Made by a program: the position numbers and the translations under genes. From Escherichia phage A4, in the sequence record ON286972: DNA of 64,000 bases; one strand, 5' to 3'. Under the pieces are notes generated by a model. It was not told where the DNA came from, made no database searches, and worked only from the letters and a program-made list of their open reading frames with translations. Position 1 is the first letter of the stretch; each line of letters begins with the position of its first letter. Shown here piece by piece: positions 44,835-53,882 of the stretch.

Positions 44835-45197
44835 ATGTCAATTCAAGGTAAACAAGTCATGTCTGGTGAGCACCGTGGAACTATCATGCTAATAGAAAAT
44901 GATATTGCACGTATTATTGTATCAAAGACCTTTTCTGAAGATGATGAAGTACTTTTGAGTACTTTTGATGGTGAGGTACTGCGTGATGTGGAAATTCAAC
45001 ACGCACCGAATATTGAAGGTGGGCAGCACTTGAATGTAAATGTTCTATCTAAAGAACAACTCATTGATGCACAAAATAATCCAGAAAAGTATCCGCAACT
45101 TACAATTCGTGTTAGTGGTTATGCAGTTCGTTTCAATTCACTAACAAAAGAACAACAAGATGATGTAATCAATCGTACTTTTACTAAAGGTCTATGA
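44835..45197 (+). CDS. grcA: Autonomous glycyl-radical cofactor (GrcA/YfiD-like)
   Basis: [11 protein letters not shown] and [35 protein letters not shown] are near-identical to recalled E. coli GrcA/PFL C-terminus. Confidence 0.85.
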
Positions 45198-45529: not shown

Positions 45530-45980
45530 TTTAGTTAATGGGGAGGGAGTTAGATGCTCCCTTTTTGTTTCAGGGTGTAGCCACGGATGTGAAGAATGCT
45601 TCAACGAAAAAGCATGGGATTATCGCAGTGGTTCAGAATTCAGTACTGAAACAGTTGAAATCATCCTGAATGAACTTAACAAGCCATATGTACAAGGATT
45701 ATCCCTTTTAGGTGGTGATCCATTGATGCCAAAGAATATCAGTACTGTTATTGAGTTATGTAAAGTAGTAAAAGAAAAATATCCAAATAAAGATATTTGG
45801 TGCTGGAGTGGTTATACTTTAGAGGAAATAATAAATAATCATGCCTCCGCAATACTAGAGTACATTGATGTATTAGTTGATGGTAAATTTATTCTTGAAG
45901 AAAAGAATTTAGAATTACCATTTAGAGGCTCTAATAATCAACGTATTCTTCGTAAAGGAGTAGATTATGCGTTATCTTGA
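45501..45980 (+). CDS. nrdG: Anaerobic ribonucleotide reductase activating protein (radical SAM)
   Basis: [24 protein letters not shown] (CxxxCxxC) and GGDPL; parallels recalled T4 NrdG N-terminus. Confidence 0.85.
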   Translation: MNYQTIIKDDLVNGEGVRCSLFVSGCSHGCEECFNEKAWDYRSGSEFSTETVEIILNELNKPYVQGLSLLGGDPLMPKNISTVIELCKVVKEKYPNKDIWCWSGYTLEEIINNHASAILEYIDVLVDGKFILEEKNLELPFRGSNNQRILRKGVDYALS

Positions 45981-46125
45981 TATTATTTCTGAAAAGATAC
46001 AGAAACGTGGAAATGAGTGGGTTGTTACTGACCACACAGGGAAGAAAGTTCTCGGTCGTCACCCAACCAGAAAAGAAGCACTTAAACAATTAAGAGCAGT
46101 TGAATTTTCTAAACACGGCGGTTAA
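45967..46125 (+). CDS. Small hypothetical protein (52 aa), below the ORF-track cutoff
   Basis: ATG 6 nt after AAGGAG; MRYLDIISEKIQKRGNEWVVTDHTGKKVLGRHPTRKEALKQLRAVEFSKHGG. Confidence 0.4.
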   Translation: MRYLDIISEKIQKRGNEWVVTDHTGKKVLGRHPTRKEALKQLRAVEFSKHGG

Positions 46126-46133
46126 TATGAAGA

Positions 46134-46157
46134 AGCACCCTTTGGGTGCTTTTTTTA
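46134..46157 (+). terminator. Rho-independent terminator
   Basis: Hairpin agcaccc-ttt-gggtgct followed by TTTTTTT. Confidence 0.6.
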
Positions 46158-46164
46158 TACTATT

Positions 46165-46172
46165 ATAAATAC
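46165..46172 (+). promoter_or_regulatory. T4-type late promoter TATAAATA
   Basis: Exact TATAAATA about 30 nt upstream of the 894 aa gene. Confidence 0.55.
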
Positions 46173-46202: not shown

Positions 46203-48887
46203 ATGGCAAAGAAAATATATGGTGGCATTGATGTTACACATAATGTAACAGTCAAAGGTAAGAGAAGTGTTCAGAGCATCAATGATAACGTATTTGATGA
46301 AAATGGCAATCTCACAATAGATGCATATACACAAGATGATATGCTGGAAATGGTTGGTATGTTACCCATTTCTCGTTATGGTACACAAAACTATCTACCT
46401 GCTGGTGTCAATGGTACAACAGTTGGTTCTTCAGAAAATACTAAATCCAGAAATACAAAATTATTTTTGGAAGATGATAACACTTTAGTAATGCTACGTC
46501 CTGGTACAAATGGGAGTACACAAGGGGTTTATTATAGTTATATGACCCAGGCGGTTGGTACAACAAATACAAGTCGTATGGTTAATACTACTCGTGCATA
46601 TAAACCAAATTATTTTGGTGATTATTATGCATACCATTTATATTCATGTAGTGATGATATTACATGTGGTATGGCAAGTAATGGTTCAATTAATAAACTT
46701 TTTGTATCCGTTAATAATGGCACAATGAACGATGCAATGCATACCGGAATTTTAATTGATGACTATGCTTCAGTTAGGCCAATTGGTGAAGTACAATTTG
46801 TTATTCGTGCAGAAGATGGTGCATTATACTTTTTCAGTTTAGATACACCAAGCAATACTCTTAAAATATCAGTGGTTAAAGTTACTTTTAGTCCAAGTAA
46901 TAACCCAGGTGGTGGTACTTATAGTGTTACTAGAATTACTGGTTGGGCCACAAGAACTTTTTATAATGCAATGGTATATGATGACAATATTGTTCCAACT
47001 ATGAAAATAAATTCAACAAATACCAATGATAATCCATACGTTTTAATTCCAAGTGGTATTATTGGGTTTGGTATTTATATGACAGACCCAGATTTATATG
47101 TTGCACAGAAATCAGGTACAACTACATTTAAATTTAGATTATGTGGCGATATGTGGATGACTAACGGCAGATATGATATACGACCACAACACAGTTTTAG
47201 TATGACTTTTGATATTGCTACTAAGCAATGTGCATTGGATAATATGACAACTACTACACCAGTTGCTGTTTATGATAATGGTACAAGCATGAATGAATCT
47301 GGTCCATGTTTAACAACTGACCCGTTTTATCTTCACGCAGGTGGACGTAACATTTTCAGTAATTATTGCTATGTTCCATCAACTGGGGATGCGTTTTGCT
47401 CATTTTCACCAAACCTTGCAGAAGCATTGAATATATCATATGCAAAATACCCACCCAAATCATTATTTGATTTAATGGATGTTAGAAGTGTATCGGCAAC
47501 TGATTTTATTAATGGTGTCGTATCACCAAGATTTGGTTCAGCAGTTGGTTCATTCCAAGTGGGTGTGGAGTTATTACCAAATAACAGTACTAAGCAATAT
47601 TCAAGACGTTCAGGTGATGGTCGTTTTTATCCATCCTATGCTGTACATAAAGCTACCCCGAACTTTACATTTAAGTCTCTAGACTATGGTAATGTTCTTG
47701 GCTATGAACCAACACCAGACCGAGCGTTTATAACTACACCAGAATCTAGAATTTTTATAAGTTCAATTTCTGGTTCAACGGTAACGACTAATGGTGGTGT
47801 TTTGGTGGCTGATAATAGAACATCAACGCCAATTAGTTTTGATTATAAAGGTAATGTACTGAATAATGGTACAATCAGTATGTCACAAGATATAATGAAT
47901 TCCATTAGAAATTCCGAATTTGCTAAAGTTGCTAGTTCATGGAATATATCACCAGCATCAATAAAAACATTATCTGTATTTGTTCCACAACAAACTGATA
48001 TTCCTGTTTTTGGTGTTCTTGCAGCATCTACTACAGCCCGTGGTCTATATATTCGAGTTGTTGAATTGAATGTCAATACAAGAACTGGTGATATTACAAC
48101 ATGGTCGTTCAAACGTTTAGTACATGAAAGTGTTCAAGCTGGGGATTACAAAACAGATACCGCATATCATCTTGATAGTGGAAGTATTGGTATTACTATA
48201 TATGATGCGGGTTCTTTCTACTTCATTGGTGGTGGTATTCCTGGTTTCTTTAATACAGTTGGTAATACAAACTCTCCATTTTTCCGTGCTACAGTGGATA
48301 AAGCGACAGCCCAATTTAATAATTTCCATATAGCTGGTGCACGTCCGATCTATGCATTAGATGGTCAACCATTCGCTTTACCTAACATTGGGTTTGGTAT
48401 TCTTCAAAGTATAGATAATAATAACAAAACAATTTTTAGAACATATGGTACAACATTAGCGGATTATAATGCATGGACTGATAAAGGAAATCCATTTATA
48501 TGTCTTGTTTCCCAAGATGTTGCTCAAGGTTTTATTATATACTTCACCGAAGAGACACCAGTACTGATATCCGGTAAACACTATACATTACCAATATCAA
48601 ATATAGATTTAACAACTGTGAAAGCAAATCCTGCCAATACTACATTTTATGTGTATATTAAATTAGTACAGGGTATTGCAAACTATCATATATCAACAAC
48701 TGAATTAGCTGAAACTCATTCAATATTCTGGATTGGTACAGTGAAAACTGATAATTTACAAATAACCGAAATTAATATAGAAAAACGTTCTCGTTTAGAC
48801 CTGTTTGGTTCATCATTCAACGCTGCCGGAAGTTCCTTCCCAGTAAGTTCTGGGTTCCCTTCAAGTTCTGGTAATGTGAATTGGTAA
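46203..48887 (+). CDS. Large late (structural, fibre-like candidate) protein, paralog A
   Basis: 894 aa behind a late promoter; N- and C-terminal regions similar to 49499-52240. Confidence 0.6.
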   Translation: MAKKIYGGIDVTHNVTVKGKRSVQSINDNVFDENGNLTIDAYTQDDMLEMVGMLPISRYGTQNYLPAGVNGTTVGSSENTKSRNTKLFLEDDNTLVMLRPGTNGSTQGVYYSYMTQAVGTTNTSRMVNTTRAYKPNYFGDYYAYHLYSCSDDITCGMASNGSINKLFVSVNNGTMNDAMHTGILIDDYASVRPIGEVQFVIRAEDGALYFFSLDTPSNTLKISVVKVTFSPSNNPGGGTYSVTRITGWATRTFYNAMVYDDNIVPTMKINSTNTNDNPYVLIPSGIIGFGIYMTDPDLYVAQKSGTTTFKFRLCGDMWMTNGRYDIRPQHSFSMTFDIATKQCALDNMTTTTPVAVYDNGTSMNESGPCLTTDPFYLHAGGRNIFSNYCYVPSTGDAFCSFSPNLAEALNISYAKYPPKSLFDLMDVRSVSATDFINGVVSPRFGSAVGSFQVGVELLPNNSTKQYSRRSGDGRFYPSYAVHKATPNFTFKSLDYGNVLGYEPTPDRAFITTPESRIFISSISGSTVTTNGGVLVADNRTSTPISFDYKGNVLNNGTISMSQDIMNSIRNSEFAKVASSWNISPASIKTLSVFVPQQTDIPVFGVLAASTTARGLYIRVVELNVNTRTGDITTWSFKRLVHESVQAGDYKTDTAYHLDSGSIGITIYDAGSFYFIGGGIPGFFNTVGNTNSPFFRATVDKATAQFNNFHIAGARPIYALDGQPFALPNIGFGILQSIDNNNKTIFRTYGTTLADYNAWTDKGNPFICLVSQDVAQGFIIYFTEETPVLISGKHYTLPISNIDLTTVKANPANTTFYVYIKLVQGIANYHISTTELAETHSIFWIGTVKTDNLQITEINIEKRSRLDLFGSSFNAAGSSFPVSSGFPSSSGNVNW

Positions 48888-48897
48888 TGGAGATAAT

Positions 48898-49488
48898 ATG
48901 GCTTATAAATTTAGATCTGATGTGGAAGCGTATGCTTCCGTTAAATCACAAGGAAAAAATACTGGGACCACGATAACTGATCGTTCTGGTAATGTGTATC
49001 AAGCTGATGCTAATGGGAATGTTGATGTACCACTCATGAGTACAGATGATGTGAATTACATTACCAGTTCCTTTCCGTTATCACAATTTGGTTCACTTTA
49101 CAGTACTGAACCATTGGGTATTTCTGCTGCTGGTTTCAATTTAACTTTCAGTAAAGAATTACCATTGTTCATGGCGGGAGCGGTTTATACCCTCCCTGCT
49201 AAAACAATAACGGACCCAGGAGTTACTGGAACTAATATTGAAACACATTATGTATATGTTATATTAGATGTTGGGGTAGCTGACTACCTCATTTCTAAAA
49301 CTCAACGCCCTGAAAGTAGTGTTAATATGTACATAGGACAACTGACAGTTTTCCCAGATGGCATTACAGGGGTCAGTATAAATAAAGTGTCAAGATTTGA
49401 CGACTTCAGAGTAAGTGCTACAAAAATTGGTTCAGCTATCCCTATCAGTTCTGGTACACCAGATGTGAATAGTGGGACAGAATGGTAA
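48898..49488 (+). CDS. Short protein carrying the C-terminal module of the large late paralogs
   Basis: 196 aa; C-terminus aligns with the last ~100 aa of both flanking large proteins and ends in W. Confidence 0.55.
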   Translation: MAYKFRSDVEAYASVKSQGKNTGTTITDRSGNVYQADANGNVDVPLMSTDDVNYITSSFPLSQFGSLYSTEPLGISAAGFNLTFSKELPLFMAGAVYTLPAKTITDPGVTGTNIETHYVYVILDVGVADYLISKTQRPESSVNMYIGQLTVFPDGITGVSINKVSRFDDFRVSATKIGSAIPISSGTPDVNSGTEW

Positions 49489-49498
49489 AGGAATATAT

Positions 49499-52240
49499 AT
49501 GGCTTCGAGACGAATTATAGGAAACGCAGAAATACTAGGGAATTTGAAAATTAATGGAAAGTATGCATTACGTTCCTTTAATGGATTCCCTGCTGATTCT
49601 GCTGGTAATATCACTTACCAATATTATGACAAAGCGGAAGTGGATCAAATGTTTGATATGCTTCCTGTTTCAAGGGTAGGTGATCAAGATTACCTACCGA
49701 TGAGTATTAACGGTACATTTGAAGGTGCTTCTTCCTTTTCATTTGCAAAAATAATGCAACCTTGTATCATTGAAAATGATGGTACTGGTGTAATTTTACG
49801 TGCAGGTACAAATGGAAGTTCTTATGGTTTCTATTATGCTTATATAAAAAATATAAGAGATATAGAAACATTAACTCAAGATAATATAATTACAACCAAC
49901 ACGATGTATAGACCTTCTGTGCTACCAAGTACTGATTACATTTATGAATTTTATGGGTCAAATGCATATGAATTACTATTTTGGGAATCAACTGATAGAG
50001 CATCATACTACCTTACATTAACAAATGAAACATTAAATGAATCAGCACACAAACATTGCAGAATTCCAAAAACAGCAATAACAAATAAACCAATCTATGC
50101 ACACATCGTAAATGATTCAGTTTATATATGGTGTATGGATTCAAGTGTATTGAGTAGTGTTCGCGGGTGTGCATTTATCATATACACAGTACCTTTAACT
50201 GCATTTAATACTGGTTCAGTTTCGACAGTAACACAGATTAGTGGTTATTCAGGAAGAACTATAAGAAATGTAACATACACTGCATCTAATAATATTCGTG
50301 TTTATGATAGTTATTCAGCGTTGGGTTCAGGTGGTGATGCACTAATAGCATATGATAATGGTGTTTCCAGAATAGATTATTGGGAAAATAACGCATTTAA
50401 TACCCAAGCAGTTCTTAGTCCAGATGGTACAAAAATAAGAGTAGCGATATATCCAGGGTTTCGTGTCTTAACCGCAACAAAAACATCTGGTGTATATGCA
50501 CTTGGTATCAGCTTTACATATGATATCAGTACTAAAACAATGACACTTGACGGTTCTGAACGTGGTCCAATCAGAGTATCAGCTAATGCATCAACTGGTA
50601 GTATAACAGTGAGTAACCCGTTTTCAATCAATATGGAAAACTTTACAGGGTTTTATGATGGTGCACTTGGTAACTATGGTTCAATCTGTCAAACTTCTGA
50701 TGGTTTTGTTTTCACTACCAAAGCAAGATGGTCATCCATGCCGACCTATGCAGTACAAACATACAAAGTTTCTGGTACACCTTATGATAGTTGGGTTGCT
50801 AAAACACGTACTGGTAGTAATTTAAAACGCGTAGAAGTAATGCCCGTTTATGGTTCACCTGTAGGTGAAAACTTAATAGGTGTTCGTTTCGTTGATAAAC
50901 GTAAGATACTTGTTGCATGTTCTGGTACTGCTGATGGAATTTCTTATGGTTATGATAGTACAGTTTTTACTGAAATAGGTGAGAATCCAACTTATAGTTA
51001 TAAAAACTTGGAACAAAATACCACAATGAATGGTTTTGCACCATCAGGTAATAGACACTATTTAAGTACTGATTACAAATATGCAGGTATGGTAACATTG
51101 GTTGATGCCAATGGAAATGTCAGCACTTATGGATCTTCTTTAATAGAAGGTATCGATAAACCAGCTTATGGAAAATTCGACCCTGTTACAATGGACTTTA
51201 ACAGTGATAGATATGAAATTTCAGGAACTACATTATCAGGTATAGGTTATAATGCCGTTGCTAAAGCTGGATTGACTGGAATAACTGAACATAAAACTGT
51301 TTTTTATTATGTACCTGATACTACATATTCTAAATCTATTGCAGTCACTTCTGCACTAAACGGTACTACCAACGTGTGTTATATTATTTTTTCCGAAATA
51401 TCATGTAGTGCACTGGGTACAAGTGGTACTATAATTTTACGTGGTATTAGTGTTGATACAGCAAGATATACATCAATCACGAATACATTCCAAATTTCAC
51501 CAAATGAAATGATCAAACGTTGGGCTGGTATGACTGTTGCTAAGTTTAGTGGTTTTAACTACTTAGGTGTGAACATTTTATATGGCATTGATACCCCAGG
51601 TTGGACTCGTTATCCTAACATGATTGCTAAAGTGAAAAATGGTATTATTTCAAGTCAACGATATATGGAAACAACTTATATTTCAAACGCACAATTTGAT
51701 ATAGGTACAATTCCAGGGATTGGGTTTGGATATTACCAAATGAACAAAAACGATTATCAAACTAAATCAGTTTTTGCTGTATGTGGTACTACTGAAGCAG
51801 ATATGGATAAACTAATATCTGGTAATGAAACGATATCACAGTACTTAGTTGTTGCTTCACAGGATGTGGCACAAGGGTTCAACGTGTACTTTTCACAAGA
51901 AGTACCAGTTTTCTTGGGTGGAAAGTTTGCAAAGATACCACCGACTATGATAGACTTATCTACCATAAGTACTACACCAGATAATTCAACATTCTACATA
52001 TATGCGGTTATGGATAGAGGTACATCTACAGCTTCGTATCAGATATCACTATATCAATTATCAGAAACTATGACATCAACCTACATTGGTAAGATAGTAA
52101 CTGATGCTAATGGTATTGCATCAATCGAGTCTGAAAAAGTGTCCAGATTCTTGCTATACCGCCCAAGTACCTACAATCGTGGTTCTGCTATCCCAGCTAG
52201 TTCTGGGTTACCATCACAATCTGGTACTCGTTGGAGTTAA
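49499..52240 (+). CDS. Large late (structural, fibre-like candidate) protein, paralog B
   Basis: Track ORF 49472-52240 trimmed to ATG 49499; shares MLP.SR.G.Q.YLP, LRAGTNGS and DVAQGF..YF motifs with paralog A. Confidence 0.6.
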   Translation: MASRRIIGNAEILGNLKINGKYALRSFNGFPADSAGNITYQYYDKAEVDQMFDMLPVSRVGDQDYLPMSINGTFEGASSFSFAKIMQPCIIENDGTGVILRAGTNGSSYGFYYAYIKNIRDIETLTQDNIITTNTMYRPSVLPSTDYIYEFYGSNAYELLFWESTDRASYYLTLTNETLNESAHKHCRIPKTAITNKPIYAHIVNDSVYIWCMDSSVLSSVRGCAFIIYTVPLTAFNTGSVSTVTQISGYSGRTIRNVTYTASNNIRVYDSYSALGSGGDALIAYDNGVSRIDYWENNAFNTQAVLSPDGTKIRVAIYPGFRVLTATKTSGVYALGISFTYDISTKTMTLDGSERGPIRVSANASTGSITVSNPFSINMENFTGFYDGALGNYGSICQTSDGFVFTTKARWSSMPTYAVQTYKVSGTPYDSWVAKTRTGSNLKRVEVMPVYGSPVGENLIGVRFVDKRKILVACSGTADGISYGYDSTVFTEIGENPTYSYKNLEQNTTMNGFAPSGNRHYLSTDYKYAGMVTLVDANGNVSTYGSSLIEGIDKPAYGKFDPVTMDFNSDRYEISGTTLSGIGYNAVAKAGLTGITEHKTVFYYVPDTTYSKSIAVTSALNGTTNVCYIIFSEISCSALGTSGTIILRGISVDTARYTSITNTFQISPNEMIKRWAGMTVAKFSGFNYLGVNILYGIDTPGWTRYPNMIAKVKNGIISSQRYMETTYISNAQFDIGTIPGIGFGYYQMNKNDYQTKSVFAVCGTTEADMDKLISGNETISQYLVVASQDVAQGFNVYFSQEVPVFLGGKFAKIPPTMIDLSTISTTPDNSTFYIYAVMDRGTSTASYQISLYQLSETMTSTYIGKIVTDANGIASIESEKVSRFLLYRPSTYNRGSAIPASSGLPSQSGTRWS

Positions 52241-52247
52241 AAAATTA

Positions 52248-52276
52248 AGCCTGTCTATTGACAGGCTTTTCTTTTA
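52248..52276 (+). terminator. Rho-independent terminator
   Basis: Hairpin agcctgtc-tatt-gacaggct followed by TTTCTTTTAT. Confidence 0.6.
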
Positions 52277-52286
52277 TCCGTATAAT
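52258..52286 (+). promoter_or_regulatory. Consensus sigma70 promoter overlapping the terminator hairpin
   Basis: TTGACA (inside the hairpin), 17 nt spacer, TATAAT, about 20 nt upstream of 52309. Confidence 0.6.
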
Positions 52287-52308: not shown

Positions 52309-52869
52309 ATGGTACAATCACGTTTTAGACCACCGCTGTCACCAGCACAGTTACAACGTTTAAAAGAAAAAGAGCAGCACTTTCAGAATACCCTAGTAGT
52401 TCGTTTGCTATGCAAAAGTGTAACTCTTAAAGATTTTGTGAAAACCGATAATGATCGTAAATCACTTATCGAACTTAAGTACAAGTTAAGTAAGCATAAA
52501 CTATATGGATTACTGGCAGAATACACCCAAAATCCATTCAGTGATCGTTGGTCTATGGTTCAAAAAAAACTGTGGGGTGGTGATGAAGAATTCATACTAC
52601 GCGATTTAAAAAATGCAATCATGTTTAAGGTTGAGTATACACCAGCAGGGATTGAACACAGAACCGAAGAAACTATCATTCAATCAAGAGATTTGTCATG
52701 TGTTGTTTCTTCAAACTTCGGTGTTCATTATGATATGCTTGATGATGATGAGTTAATGATTCTGTTCCATGTCATTATTGGTGCTGAAGATATTAAAGAA
52801 AAGTTATCACAAATTGAAGAAGAACAGCGTAAATTCAAAATCCAAAAGAGAATAACTGATTTATATTAA
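52309..52869 (+). CDS. Early paralog triplet, member 1
   Basis: ~170-186 aa; shares TD.DR...I..K..LS.H N-terminal motif with the next two genes. Confidence 0.55.
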   Translation: MVQSRFRPPLSPAQLQRLKEKEQHFQNTLVVRLLCKSVTLKDFVKTDNDRKSLIELKYKLSKHKLYGLLAEYTQNPFSDRWSMVQKKLWGGDEEFILRDLKNAIMFKVEYTPAGIEHRTEETIIQSRDLSCVVSSNFGVHYDMLDDDELMILFHVIIGAEDIKEKLSQIEEEQRKFKIQKRITDLY

Positions 52870-52878
52870 GAGGTTACT

Positions 52879-53379
52879 ATGTTTTTCAAAAAGAAAAATA
52901 ATGATCACAAAAGAGAAAATGTAGAGTGGTGTACATTAATTCTTCCAGTACTGATGAAAAGCTATTCTTTAAAAGAAATTATCCGTACTGATGAAGATCG
53001 TAGAACTATACTTAAAATTAAAGAAATGTTAAGTTCTCATTCTCTAATGAAACTAATCACAGACCTAGTTAAAGAACCATACGGTGAACGTTGGTTATAT
53101 GAACCAGTATTCATATATGGTAATCATATCAACCGTGTAAAATTGTTTGATACCGAAACTAAGGTTGATTTTAATGCAGTAACATATTCATCTAAAGATT
53201 ATGATGAAAAACATACATTTGTTTATATTAACGGAGATGCGAATATTCTACCTAAACATGAACAAATGTTTTTGTTTCATTTACTCGTTGCACTTCGTGA
53301 GCTTGAAACAAAGTACAAGAAGTTAGAATACGAGCAGCATAAACTTAATGAATTTAATAAATTAAAAGGATTATACTAA
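52879..53379 (+). CDS. Early paralog triplet, member 2
   Basis: LKEIIRTDEDRRTILKIKEMLSSH. Confidence 0.55.
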   Translation: MFFKKKNNDHKRENVEWCTLILPVLMKSYSLKEIIRTDEDRRTILKIKEMLSSHSLMKLITDLVKEPYGERWLYEPVFIYGNHINRVKLFDTETKVDFNAVTYSSKDYDEKHTFVYINGDANILPKHEQMFLFHLLVALRELETKYKKLEYEQHKLNEFNKLKGLY

Positions 53380-53882
53380 TGTTCTTCGGTAAACATAAAG
53401 TAAAAGATGATGGTATTCTTCAGTACTTAGTTGCGTTGATTTTAAACAAAAGTACTTTATTAGTACCTAATATTAAATCAGACAAAGATCGCAGAGAAAT
53501 TATTCAAAACAAATATCTTCTTTCAAAATGTGATCCTGTTATCTATGCATTTTGTAAGTACTGTTCAAAAAACTTGTTCAGTATTCATGTAGATTTTGAA
53601 AGACACGAGAGTAGAACAGATTCTAGGATCAACGTGTATATAATTAATGATTTAAATCGAGGGAATCGAGGGTTCATGTTCTGGATGGACGGACGTGATA
53701 TACGTGTGCGTATTAAAATGTCGGTTGGGTGGAAGGATTTTTCAACTTCTGTATCTGATTATCTTGTACTTCACGCACTATATAACAGTATTACTAACGT
53801 GAAAGATATCGACAAGAAAATTCAGGAACAAAAAGAACTGGATGATGCAAAGAACGAATACTTACAATATTACAGGAGTTAA
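53379..53882 (+). CDS. Early paralog triplet, member 3
   Basis: IKSDKDRREIIQNKYLLSK; ATGA-type overlap. Confidence 0.55.
   Translation: MFFGKHKVKDDGILQYLVALILNKSTLLVPNIKSDKDRREIIQNKYLLSKCDPVIYAFCKYCSKNLFSIHVDFERHESRTDSRINVYIINDLNRGNRGFMFWMDGRDIRVRIKMSVGWKDFSTSVSDYLVLHALYNSITNVKDIDKKIQEQKELDDAKNEYLQYYRS

What the first reader, a model, noticed from the sequence alone, without database searches (positions are those of the whole stretch)
46203..52240. Late-gene cassette of two ~900 aa paralogs plus a short protein sharing one C-terminal module
Behind a TATAAATA late promoter, proteins of 894 and 913 aa share N-terminal motifs (MLP.SR.G.Q.YLP, LRAGTNGS) and a C-terminal ~100 aa module (..FY.Y......Y.IS...L.E....YIG......I..I...KVSRF.....S........SSG.P..SG..W). 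The intervening 196 aa protein consists of little more than that module. This resembles duplicated receptor-binding or fibre proteins with a common anchoring or chaperone-like C-terminus.
Basis: partly seen in the sequence, partly recalled or inferred. Interest (0 to 1): 0.5.

Follow-up and report, generated by a model that had tools for sequence, protein, structure and literature searches.

The report
Jumbo-phage tail-fibre paralog trio
Three neighbouring late genes of a giant E. coli phage encode related virus-particle proteins, two large and one cut down to its two ends, that most likely form a host-recognition fibre; this is an uncharacterised family of a familiar kind.

Summary
A (46203-48887, 894 aa) and C (49499-52240, 913 aa) are full-length paralogs (26% identity, E 9e-56). 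B (48898-49488, 196 aa) shares their C-terminal ~125 aa (36-40% identity) and also their N-terminal ~65 aa.

The window is an Asteriusvirus-type jumbo coliphage. The trio is one late transcription unit, bounded by terminators. TATAAATA lies about 40 nt upstream of the A gene in four Asteriusviruses.

Orthologs of A and C were found by mass spectrometry in virions (phAPEC6 gp323c; JP4_233 and JP4_235). The same body plus C-terminal module is fused to the phiKZ gp131-type baseplate-fibre N-domain in Erwinia phage RAY gp19 and Pseudomonas phage EL ORF114/115. It also lies in the fibre cluster of phage Goslar.

AlphaFold models give a beta-propeller-type body. The shared module resembles the shoulder domain of phage receptor-binding proteins and TssK. 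B is the ortholog of a full-length middle paralog (CBB_148) that lost its body.

Best reading: peripheral tail-fibre or receptor-binding subunits whose shared ends are assembly or docking modules, possibly a hetero-oligomer. No Pfam family and no solved structure exist. Receptor binding, location on the virion and stoichiometry are untested.

The parts
46133..46151 (+). Intrinsic-terminator-like hairpin (AAGCACCC-ttt-GGGTGCTT plus a T run) that closes the upstream nrdD/nrdG unit
   Evidence: The same hairpin precedes the A orthologs in ph0011, phAPEC6, CBB, fHe-Yen9-04 and XbC2.
46164..46171 (+). T4-type late-promoter-like element TATAAATA, 31 nt upstream of the start of A
   Evidence: only 4 copies in 64 kb against 11 expected. 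The motif starts 39-42 nt before the ATG of the A ortholog in the window, ph0011, EJP2 and phAPEC6. It reads (A/C)ATAAATA in CBB, fHe-Yen9-04 and XbC2. RaK2-like phages encode a gp55-type late sigma factor, annotated in RaK2.
46203..48887 (+). Gene A, 894 aa: N-terminal shared segment (aa 1-76), beta-propeller-type body (about aa 86-765), shoulder-like module (about aa 766-862), conserved tail (aa 863-894)
   Evidence: AF2 model pLDDT 83.5. PHROG 3573, E 1e-198. Orthologs phAPEC6 gp323c and JP4_233 were detected in virions.
48498..48884 (+). C-terminal shared module plus tail of A
48898..49488 (+). Gene B, 196 aa: shared N-terminal segment with FPLSQFG motif (aa 1-70), shoulder-like module (aa 71-165), conserved tail (aa 166-196). 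It is an internally deleted ortholog of the full-length middle paralog CBB_148.
49499..52240 (+). Gene C, 913 aa: same architecture as A. The module plus tail is at about aa 784-912 (51848-52234).
   Evidence: PHROG 3573, E 9e-207. Ortholog JP4_235 was detected in virions.
52247..52268 (+). Intrinsic-terminator-like hairpin that closes the cassette
   Evidence: Conserved downstream of the C orthologs in ph0011, EJP2, phAPEC6 and CBB.
52258..52286 (+). Perfect sigma-70-type promoter (TTGACA, 17 nt spacer, TATAAT) for the next, unrelated genes. Its -35 hexamer lies inside the terminator hairpin. It marks the 3' border of the late cassette.
   Evidence: 12 of 12 matches. Conserved in the relatives.

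Best explanation
A, B and C are low-copy virion proteins of an Asteriusvirus-type jumbo coliphage. They are transcribed late as one unit and most likely form a peripheral tail (baseplate) fibre or receptor-binding assembly.

Each protein has a short N-terminal segment shared by all three (about 50 aa plus the LPxSxxG motif). This segment is probably the lineage-specific adaptor to the virion or to partner chains. Each also has a C-terminal beta-sandwich resembling the 'shoulder' domain by which phage receptor-binding proteins and T6SS TssK trimerise and dock onto adaptor arms, followed by a conserved tail. A and C carry different beta-propeller-type bodies between these ends. The bodies are the probable glycan-binding or glycan-cleaving, host-range-determining parts.

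B is the middle paralog that lost its body and kept only the two assembly ends. My preferred sub-model is that the three chains co-assemble, most simply 1:1:1, through the shared ends. B would then be a body-less structural subunit, by analogy with the phiKZ fibre base built from single copies of the paralogs gp133, gp134 and gp135.

Shown: paralogy, transcription-unit anatomy, virion presence of the A and C orthologs, homology to fibre proteins of chimalliviruses, predicted folds, purifying selection, and the cassette as a divergence and exchange hot spot.

Inferred: location on the baseplate, receptor binding, the trimerising or docking role of the module, and hetero-oligomer stoichiometry.
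For: - Paralogy and module sharing.
- One late unit: terminator, then TATAAATA, then three genes separated by 10-nt spacers, then a terminator. This layout is conserved in relatives.
- Virion mass spectrometry. phAPEC6 gp323c, the 98.6-kDa gene directly after nrdG, gave 4 unique peptides. JP4_233 (A ortholog) and JP4_235 (C ortholog) gave 2 unique peptides each, with similar abundances of 1.8e6 and 2.3e6.
- Link to fibres. RAY gp19 and EL ORF114/115 consist of a phiKZ gp131-like N-domain (E 2e-20 to 1e-7 against gp131) followed from about residue 270 by the A/C-type body and module (E down to 2e-42). The phiKZ atlas places gp131-type N-domains at the fibre attachment sites under gp130 (PMC13250141). 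Goslar_26 is a full-length homolog lying among gp131-like and Peptidase_S74-bearing fibre genes.
- B is orthologous to CBB_148 at both ends: residues 1-121 match CBB_148 1-119 (E 2e-14) and residues 79-196 match 798-916 (E 1e-21). dN/dS is 0.27.
- Trios of tandem paralogs follow nrdG in CBB, fHe-Yen9-04 and XbC2. Body-less members recur: RAY gp18, Goslar_28 and B-like clusters of 193-194 aa.
- The cassette is far more divergent than its flanks against phAPEC6: A 52%, B 41% and C 50% amino-acid identity, versus 81-92% for the flanking genes. Against ph0011 it is less divergent than the flank at synonymous sites (dS 0.15-0.38 versus 1.4). The cassette is therefore mosaic, as host-range modules typically are.
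Against: - No direct evidence exists for position on the virion, for receptor binding or for oligomeric state.
- MS coverage is low (2-6%), and B orthologs have never been detected. B was not found in JP4 and is not annotated in phAPEC6.
- In known systems the shoulder domain is N-terminal and lies next to the baseplate. Here it is C-terminal. In RAY gp19 and EL ORF114/115 it would lie distal to the gp131-type anchor, so its role may be to dock a further component rather than to anchor.
- phiKZ gp131-135 themselves lack both the body and the module.
- The cassette lies among nucleotide-metabolism genes, not in the main structural block.
- The hetero-oligomer idea rests only on recurrence of trios and on analogy.
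Confidence: 0.6

Rival explanations
1. A, B and C are three independent homotrimeric fibres or spikes that compete for, or occupy, different equivalent docking sites. A and C would give the phage two receptor specificities. The B homotrimer would be a headless plug or regulator of site occupancy.
For: Most phage receptor-binding proteins and all known shoulder-domain proteins (p2 RBP, TssK) are homotrimers; this is established knowledge, and the fold link comes. A and C have clearly different bodies (26% identity). Multi-RBP branched systems are known in RaK2-type phages; the CBB paper lists the RaK2 fibre and spike genes.
Against: A headless homotrimer that blocks sites would be hard to keep under purifying selection, yet B has dN/dS 0.27 and an intact ORF in 57 records. 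Strict co-occurrence argues for interdependence: A and C each cover at least 80% of the query in 77 records, and trios recur in several genera. The abundances of the A and C orthologs in JP4 are nearly equal, which is weak evidence.
Confidence: 0.25
2. The proteins are components, for example the small terminal knobs or the anchors, of the unassigned 'hairy' whiskers seen on the tail sheath and capsid of phAPEC6, CBB and 121Q, rather than of baseplate fibres.
For: The whisker proteins of phAPEC6 and CBB are unassigned. The whiskers end in tiny globular structures (PMC7247149 and PMC5259590). The A ortholog is a virion protein of unknown position. The cassette lies outside the main tail and baseplate gene block.
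Against: The homologous body and module are fused to baseplate-fibre N-domains in RAY and EL and lie in the fibre cluster of Goslar. GAP32, for which no whiskers were reported, has all three paralogs. MS signals are low, whereas whiskers are numerous. A propeller-rich globular protein of 900 aa cannot itself make a thin filament of 119 nm.
Confidence: 0.1
3. The shared C-terminal unit is an intramolecular chaperone or assembly domain that is removed after folding, as with the Peptidase_S74 domains of endosialidases and some tail fibres. B would be a trans-acting assembly chaperone.
For: A conserved C-terminus with variable upstream parts is the pattern seen for C-terminal chaperone domains. 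A neighbouring Goslar fibre gene (Goslar_25) carries Peptidase_S74. B orthologs have not been seen in virions.
Against: There is no Pfam or NCBIfam hit to S74 or to any chaperone family. The module's fold matches shoulder domains, not S74. In RAY gp20 the module is internal, at residues 874-1001 of 1151. B also keeps the N-terminal segment, which a pure chaperone would not need.
Confidence: 0.05

Closest known systems
phiKZ tail-fibre paralog cluster gp131-gp135 (hetero-hexameric fibre base; gp131 C-domain PDB 4GBF), and the equivalent clusters in Erwinia phage RAY (gp17-20), Pseudomonas phage EL (ORF113-116) and E. coli phage Goslar (gp25-29)
   Same: Tandem late paralogs with shared terminal domains and different distal parts. 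A beta-propeller distal domain occurs in gp131. Single-copy paralogs co-assemble in one fibre (PMC13250141). RAY gp19/gp20, EL ORF114/115 and Goslar_26 contain true homologs of the A/C body and module. Short body-less members exist in these clusters too (RAY gp18, Goslar_28, phiKZ gp132).
   Different: A, B and C lack the gp131-type N-domain and are not next to a gp130-like gene. phiKZ gp131-135 lack the LPxSxxG motif and the C-terminal module. The gp131 propeller was not among the listed fold matches. The Asteriusvirus baseplate is T4-like rather than phiKZ-like; this last point is inferred from the annotations of phAPEC6 and RaK2.
Shoulder domain of siphophage receptor-binding proteins (lactococcal phage p2 ORF18, PDB 2WZP; SPP1 gp22, 2XC8) and of T6SS TssK (5Y0E, 5M30)
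   Different: There is no sequence similarity. The domain is C-terminal here and N-terminal there. It is followed by a conserved Gly/Ser/Pro-rich tail ending in Trp. Trimerisation and adaptor binding are untested.
Beta-propeller receptor-binding proteins of phages (Staphylococcus phage phi11 Gp45, PDB 5EFV) and propeller lectins and glycosidases (AAL, GH130, GH43, sialidases)
   Different: The matches are generic (TM below 0.35, 4-12% identity). No catalytic motif or sugar-binding site could be assigned, so neither binding nor enzymatic function is established.
PHROG 3573, 7449 and 26864 (unknown function)
   Same: A and C match PHROG 3573 end to end (E 1e-198 and 9e-207). B matches PHROG 26864 end to end (E 2e-43).
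   Different: These families carry no functional annotation. The link to fibres, the fold of the module and the origin of B by deletion are not recorded there.

Membership tests
PHROG 3573 / A-C family of jumbo-phage proteins | Full-length profile match | tested here: met
   A E 1.4e-198 (residues 1-894) and C E 8.9e-207 (residues 28-912). A profile of 32 members finds 548 clusters at 50% identity (E <= 1e-3), 240 of them at E <= 1e-30.
phiKZ gp131-type tail-fibre paralogs | gp131-like N-terminal domain (about 250 aa, PFDPxG...NxIxGE start) that docks under gp130 | tested here: not met
   No BLASTP match of A, B or C to gp131-135 or to the N-domains of RAY, EL or Goslar proteins. Homology starts only after that domain, with A residue ~52 aligning to RAY gp19 residue 274.
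phiKZ gp131-type tail-fibre paralogs | Gene cluster adjacent to a divergently transcribed gp130-like gene | tested here: not met
   The cassette follows nrdD/nrdG and a 52-aa ORF. The gp130-like arrangement is seen in phiKZ, Goslar, RAY and EL.
phiKZ gp131-type tail-fibre paralogs | Location at the baseplate periphery of the virion | not testable with these tools
   Only presence in virions is documented (MS).
RBP / TssK shoulder-domain fold | Beta-sandwich fold similar to the p2 ORF18 shoulder, SPP1 gp22 and the TssK N-domain | tested here: met
RBP / TssK shoulder-domain fold | N-terminal position, proximal to the baseplate | tested here: not met
   The module is C-terminal in A, B and C and in most homologs.
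RBP / TssK shoulder-domain fold | Trimerisation and binding of an adaptor arm | not testable with these tools
   Only monomer prediction was available. Both termini are disordered in the monomer models, which is compatible with partner-dependent folding but proves nothing.
Peptidase_S74 intramolecular chaperone C-terminal domains | Pfam PF13884 match with its catalytic Ser-Lys dyad region | tested here: not met
   No Pfam hit at E <= 1 apart from a sub-threshold DUF5484 match in the N-terminus of A. The fold hits are not S74.
T4-type late transcription unit | TATAAATA element shortly upstream of the first gene, and a phage gp55-type sigma factor | tested here: inconclusive
   The motif is present and conserved in position in four Asteriusviruses, with an ATAAATA core in three further genera. 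A gp55-like sigma factor is annotated in RaK2, and the phAPEC6 paper reports a phage sigma factor. I did not search for the sigma gene of this phage, and no transcript data were examined.
Virion structural protein | Detection in purified particles | tested here: met
   Taken from the literature for orthologs, not for this phage. phAPEC6 gp323c gave 4 unique peptides and 5.6% coverage. JP4_233 and JP4_235 gave 2 unique peptides each. The B ortholog was not detected.

The most novel reading that the evidence does not exclude
The trio forms an obligate heterotrimeric (A:B:C) fibre unit. In it a body-less paralog supplies only the N-terminal and shoulder-like interfaces. This would exemplify a general rule in jumbo phages: tandem triplets of paralogs (CBB_147-149; RAY gp18-20; Goslar 26-28; phiKZ gp133-135) build asymmetric, multi-specific receptor-binding heads, with shoulder-type domains used at the distal end as a docking hub rather than as the baseplate anchor.
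Probability: 0.25. Interest if true: 0.6.

Novelty: new variant of a known kind. Interest (0 to 1): 0.42.

Why it matters
Asteriusvirus and RaK2-like jumbo phages are being isolated as therapy candidates, yet their host-recognition apparatus is largely unassigned. This trio is a swappable hot spot of divergence. Amino-acid identity to phAPEC6 is 41-52%, against 81-92% in the flanking genes, and one allele is shared with ph0011. That makes it a prime candidate for a host-range determinant.

The analysis ties an unannotated family (no Pfam entry; PHROGs of unknown function; about 550 clusters at 50% identity) to the tail fibres of chimalliviruses. It also identifies a shoulder-like docking module in an unusual C-terminal position. 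Finally, it gives a concrete, testable reason why a 196-aa remnant gene is conserved.

If the hetero-oligomer model holds, it would extend the recent phiKZ finding of fibres built from several paralogs to a second, unrelated baseplate type.

Tried and rejected
- Pfam, NCBIfam and PHROGs give no function. The 'T5orf172' note on the ph0011 ortholog is not reproduced by Pfam.
- PDB sequence searches with A, with C and with a 32-sequence profile found nothing usable.
- Direct homology of A, B and C to phiKZ gp131-135 was tested and not found.
- A second TATAAATA inside B (49377-49384) looked like an internal promoter for C. It is only a coding coincidence: it is shared with ph0011 but absent from EJP2 and phAPEC6.
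- CBB_148 and CBB_149 are labelled 'structural protein', but they are absent from the CBB mass-spectrometry table, so I do not use them as MS evidence.
- The RAY and Deimos-Minion MS data come from crude lysates. They show expression only.
- I tried to check whether RaK2 lacks the trio, but the 49 kb fetched was the wrong region. Presence or absence in Alcyoneusvirus remains untested.
- The word-indexed protein searches with B and with the module profile returned few sequences (6 and 19), so the B alignment for AF2 was shallow.
- A search for a published assignment of these proteins found none.
Full report
**Observation**

They are separated by 10-nt spacers that carry ribosome-binding sites, and they lie in three different reading frames. 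A and C align over their whole length, with 26% identity and E 9e-56. B residues 77-196 match the C-termini of C (40%, E 1e-21) and of A (36%, E 5e-18).

B also shares the N-terminal ~65 aa. BLASTP against A gives E 6e-5, and B matches positions 5-62 of the A-family profile. So B is 'both ends without the middle', not just the C-terminal module. No other ORF in the 64-kb window carries the module.

**Transcription unit**

A terminator-like hairpin at 46133-46151 closes the upstream nrdD/nrdG genes. TATAAATA follows at 46164-46171. The octamer is under-represented in the window, with 4 copies against 11 expected. In the window, ph0011, EJP2 and phAPEC6 it starts 39-42 nt before the ATG of the A ortholog. 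In CBB, fHe-Yen9-04 and XbC2 the same position holds an ATAAATA core.

A second hairpin at 52247-52268 ends the cassette. It overlaps a perfect sigma-70-type promoter, TTGACA-17-TATAAT, at 52258-52286 that serves the next genes. This arrangement is also conserved. RaK2-like phages encode a T4 gp55-type late sigma factor, as annotated in RaK2. The reading 'stand-alone late operon embedded among early or metabolic genes' is therefore well supported by sequence, though no transcript data were examined.

**Which phage this is**

The region is 91.6% identical in DNA to Escherichia phage ph0011, an Asteriusvirus of 348 kb. It has no other near-identical DNA match in the phage collection. The synteny nrdD, nrdG, ~900-aa gene, ~196-aa gene, ~915-aa gene is shared with EJP2, phAPEC6, 121Q, PBECO4 and JP4.

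In Mimasvirus (CBB, XbC2) and Eneladusvirus (fHe-Yen9-04) the same position holds three full-length paralogs of about 900 aa. Local all-against-all BLASTP shows A = CBB_147 and C = CBB_149. B matches the middle paralog CBB_148 at both ends: B 1-121 aligns with CBB_148 1-119 (E 2e-14), and B 79-196 aligns with 798-916 (E 1e-21). The body of CBB_148 is homologous to that of C (30% identity, E 2e-101). The full-length state is therefore ancestral, and B arose by internal deletion of about 700 residues.

B is not a decaying remnant. An intact ORF of 195-196 aa with at least 80% query coverage is present in 57 phage records. Its dN/dS is 0.27 against both a close and a distant ortholog.

**Virion association**

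The phAPEC6 gene directly after nrdG, gp323c (98.6 kDa), is the A ortholog. It is listed in the ESI-MS/MS proteome of purified virions with 4 unique peptides and 5.6% coverage (PMC7247149). The B and C orthologs are intact in the phAPEC6 genome but not annotated there, so they could not have been scored.

In the JP4 virion LC-MS/MS table, both JP4_233 (A ortholog, 898 aa) and JP4_235 (C ortholog, 909 aa) are present. Each has 2 unique peptides, and their abundances are similar (1.8e6 and 2.3e6). The B ortholog is absent from that table (PMC12648861, supplement 2). The refutation criterion 'absent from virions' is therefore not met for A and C. They appear to be low-copy components.

**Link to tail fibres**

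tblastn finds full-length relatives in Agricanvirus and Goslarvirus, and relatives with only the C-terminal module in many phiKZ-like phages. Some of these are annotated as tail, minor tail or tail-fibre proteins.

RAY gp19 and EL ORF114/115 have an N-terminal ~260 aa homologous to phiKZ gp131, gp133, gp134 and gp135 (for example gp131 against RAY gp19, E 2e-20). From about residue 270 onward they contain the A/C-type sequence, beginning with the same LPxSxxG...GSFEGAS motif and ending with the module (A against RAY gp19, E 2e-42; A against RAY gp20, E 5e-62).

In phiKZ, cryo-EM places six gp131-like N-domains at each fibre-attachment site under gp130: three from gp131 and one each from gp133, gp134 and gp135 (PMC13250141). 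The gene order 'gp130-like on the minus strand, then fibre paralogs on the plus strand' is shared by phiKZ, Goslar, RAY and EL. Goslar_26 is a full-length homolog of A and C that sits between gp131-like genes, one of which carries Peptidase_S74.

The A/C body plus module is thus the distal part of baseplate fibres in chimalliviruses. In the RaK2-like lineage the same unit carries a different, short N-terminal adaptor. phiKZ itself lacks the body and the module, so A, B and C are not members of the gp131 family proper.

**Predicted structures**

The AF2 model of A, built from a 32-sequence alignment, has mean pLDDT 83.5 and pTM 0.79. It is all-beta. Residues 1-61 and 863-894 are disordered in the monomer.

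- IglD and Mtd

**Evolutionary behaviour**

Against phAPEC6 the flanking genes are 81-92% identical in protein (nrdD 89%, DUF4326 92%, nrdG 81%, nucleotidyltransferase 87%). A, B and C are only 52%, 41% and 50% identical. Against ph0011 the pattern reverses at synonymous sites: dS is 0.15-0.38 for the cassette and 1.4 for nrdD. The cassette therefore has a history different from its flanks, meaning it has been exchanged. It also exists in at least two deeply divergent allelic types within one genus. That is the behaviour expected of host-range determinants. All three genes are under purifying selection (dN/dS 0.17-0.37).

The family is large. A profile search of 1.84 billion representative proteins finds 548 clusters (240 at E <= 1e-30). 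Most are 870-1000 aa. Some are about 1150 aa with the body starting near residue 270, which are the gp131N fusions. Some are much longer, and a few are B-like proteins of 193-194 aa.

**Mechanism**

The parsimonious model is as follows. The shared N-terminal segment and the shared shoulder-like module with its tail are the assembly interfaces. The propeller bodies of A and C are the variable, host-facing parts. B persists because the assembly needs a third chain that contributes only the interfaces.

Three observations support co-assembly:
- Module-bearing paralogs recur in sets of three across lineages: A/B/C, CBB_147-149, fHe-Yen9-04 g137-139, XbC2_139-141, RAY gp18-20, and Goslar 26/28 plus marginally 27.
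- Body-less members recur: B, RAY gp18 and Goslar_28.
- phiKZ provides a precedent, with single copies of three paralogs in one fibre base.

This is inference; oligomeric state could not be computed here. The main rival is three independent homotrimers. The 'whisker' and 'cleavable chaperone' readings are less likely, for the reasons given under the rival explanations.

**Verdict**

The feature is an uncharacterised but widespread family of jumbo-phage fibre or RBP proteins. It has two uncommon traits: a shoulder-like domain at the C-terminus, and a conserved body-less paralog. It is a variant of a familiar kind of system rather than something categorically new, and its interest is moderate.

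Noticed in passing
window 52309-53882: Three tandem small paralogous genes of 186, 166 and 167 aa (d166 against d186 E 6e-15; d167 against d186 E 2e-5), directly behind a perfect sigma-70 promoter. They are only 33-40% identical to their counterparts in ph0011 and phAPEC6, although the next genes are 60-87% identical. They are absent from EJP2. This is a second hypervariable early gene set of unknown function.
   Followed up: partly
window 52247-52286: The terminator hairpin of the late cassette contains the -35 hexamer (TTGACA) of the next promoter in its loop and descending stem, with TATAAT 17 nt downstream. This compact terminator-promoter overlap is conserved in ph0011, EJP2 and phAPEC6 and, in a looser form, in CBB.
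   Followed up: partly
window 44835-45197: A 120-aa ORF between nrdD and nrdG ends with a glycyl-radical-type motif ([11 protein letters not shown]). It is annotated 'pyruvate formate-lyase' in ph0011 and fHe-Yen9-04. It looks like a GrcA/YfiD-type spare glycyl-radical domain beside the anaerobic ribonucleotide reductase. It has no tblastn match in the stretches of EJP2 and phAPEC6 that were fetched.
   Followed up: partly
window 45967-46125: A 52-aa ORF (MRYLDIISEKIQKRGNEWVV...) lies between nrdG and the terminator that precedes gene A. Small ORFs occupy the same position in CBB (CBB_146), fHe-Yen9-04 (g136) and XbC2 (XbC2_138, labelled 'putative minor tail protein'). I did not test whether they are homologous.
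   Followed up: no
L003 (phAPEC6 MK817115) 239585-242912 in record coordinates: The intact B and C orthologs are not annotated in the phAPEC6 GenBank record. Only a 37-aa 'gp322c' is called inside C. The published virion proteome therefore could not have scored them.
   Followed up: yes
   Followed up: partly
window 46203-46320 (A residues 12-38): A sub-threshold Pfam match to DUF5484 (E 0.015, 15.4 bits against a cut-off of 27) in the shared N-terminal segment. It could be a lead to the adaptor's relatives or simply noise.
   Followed up: no
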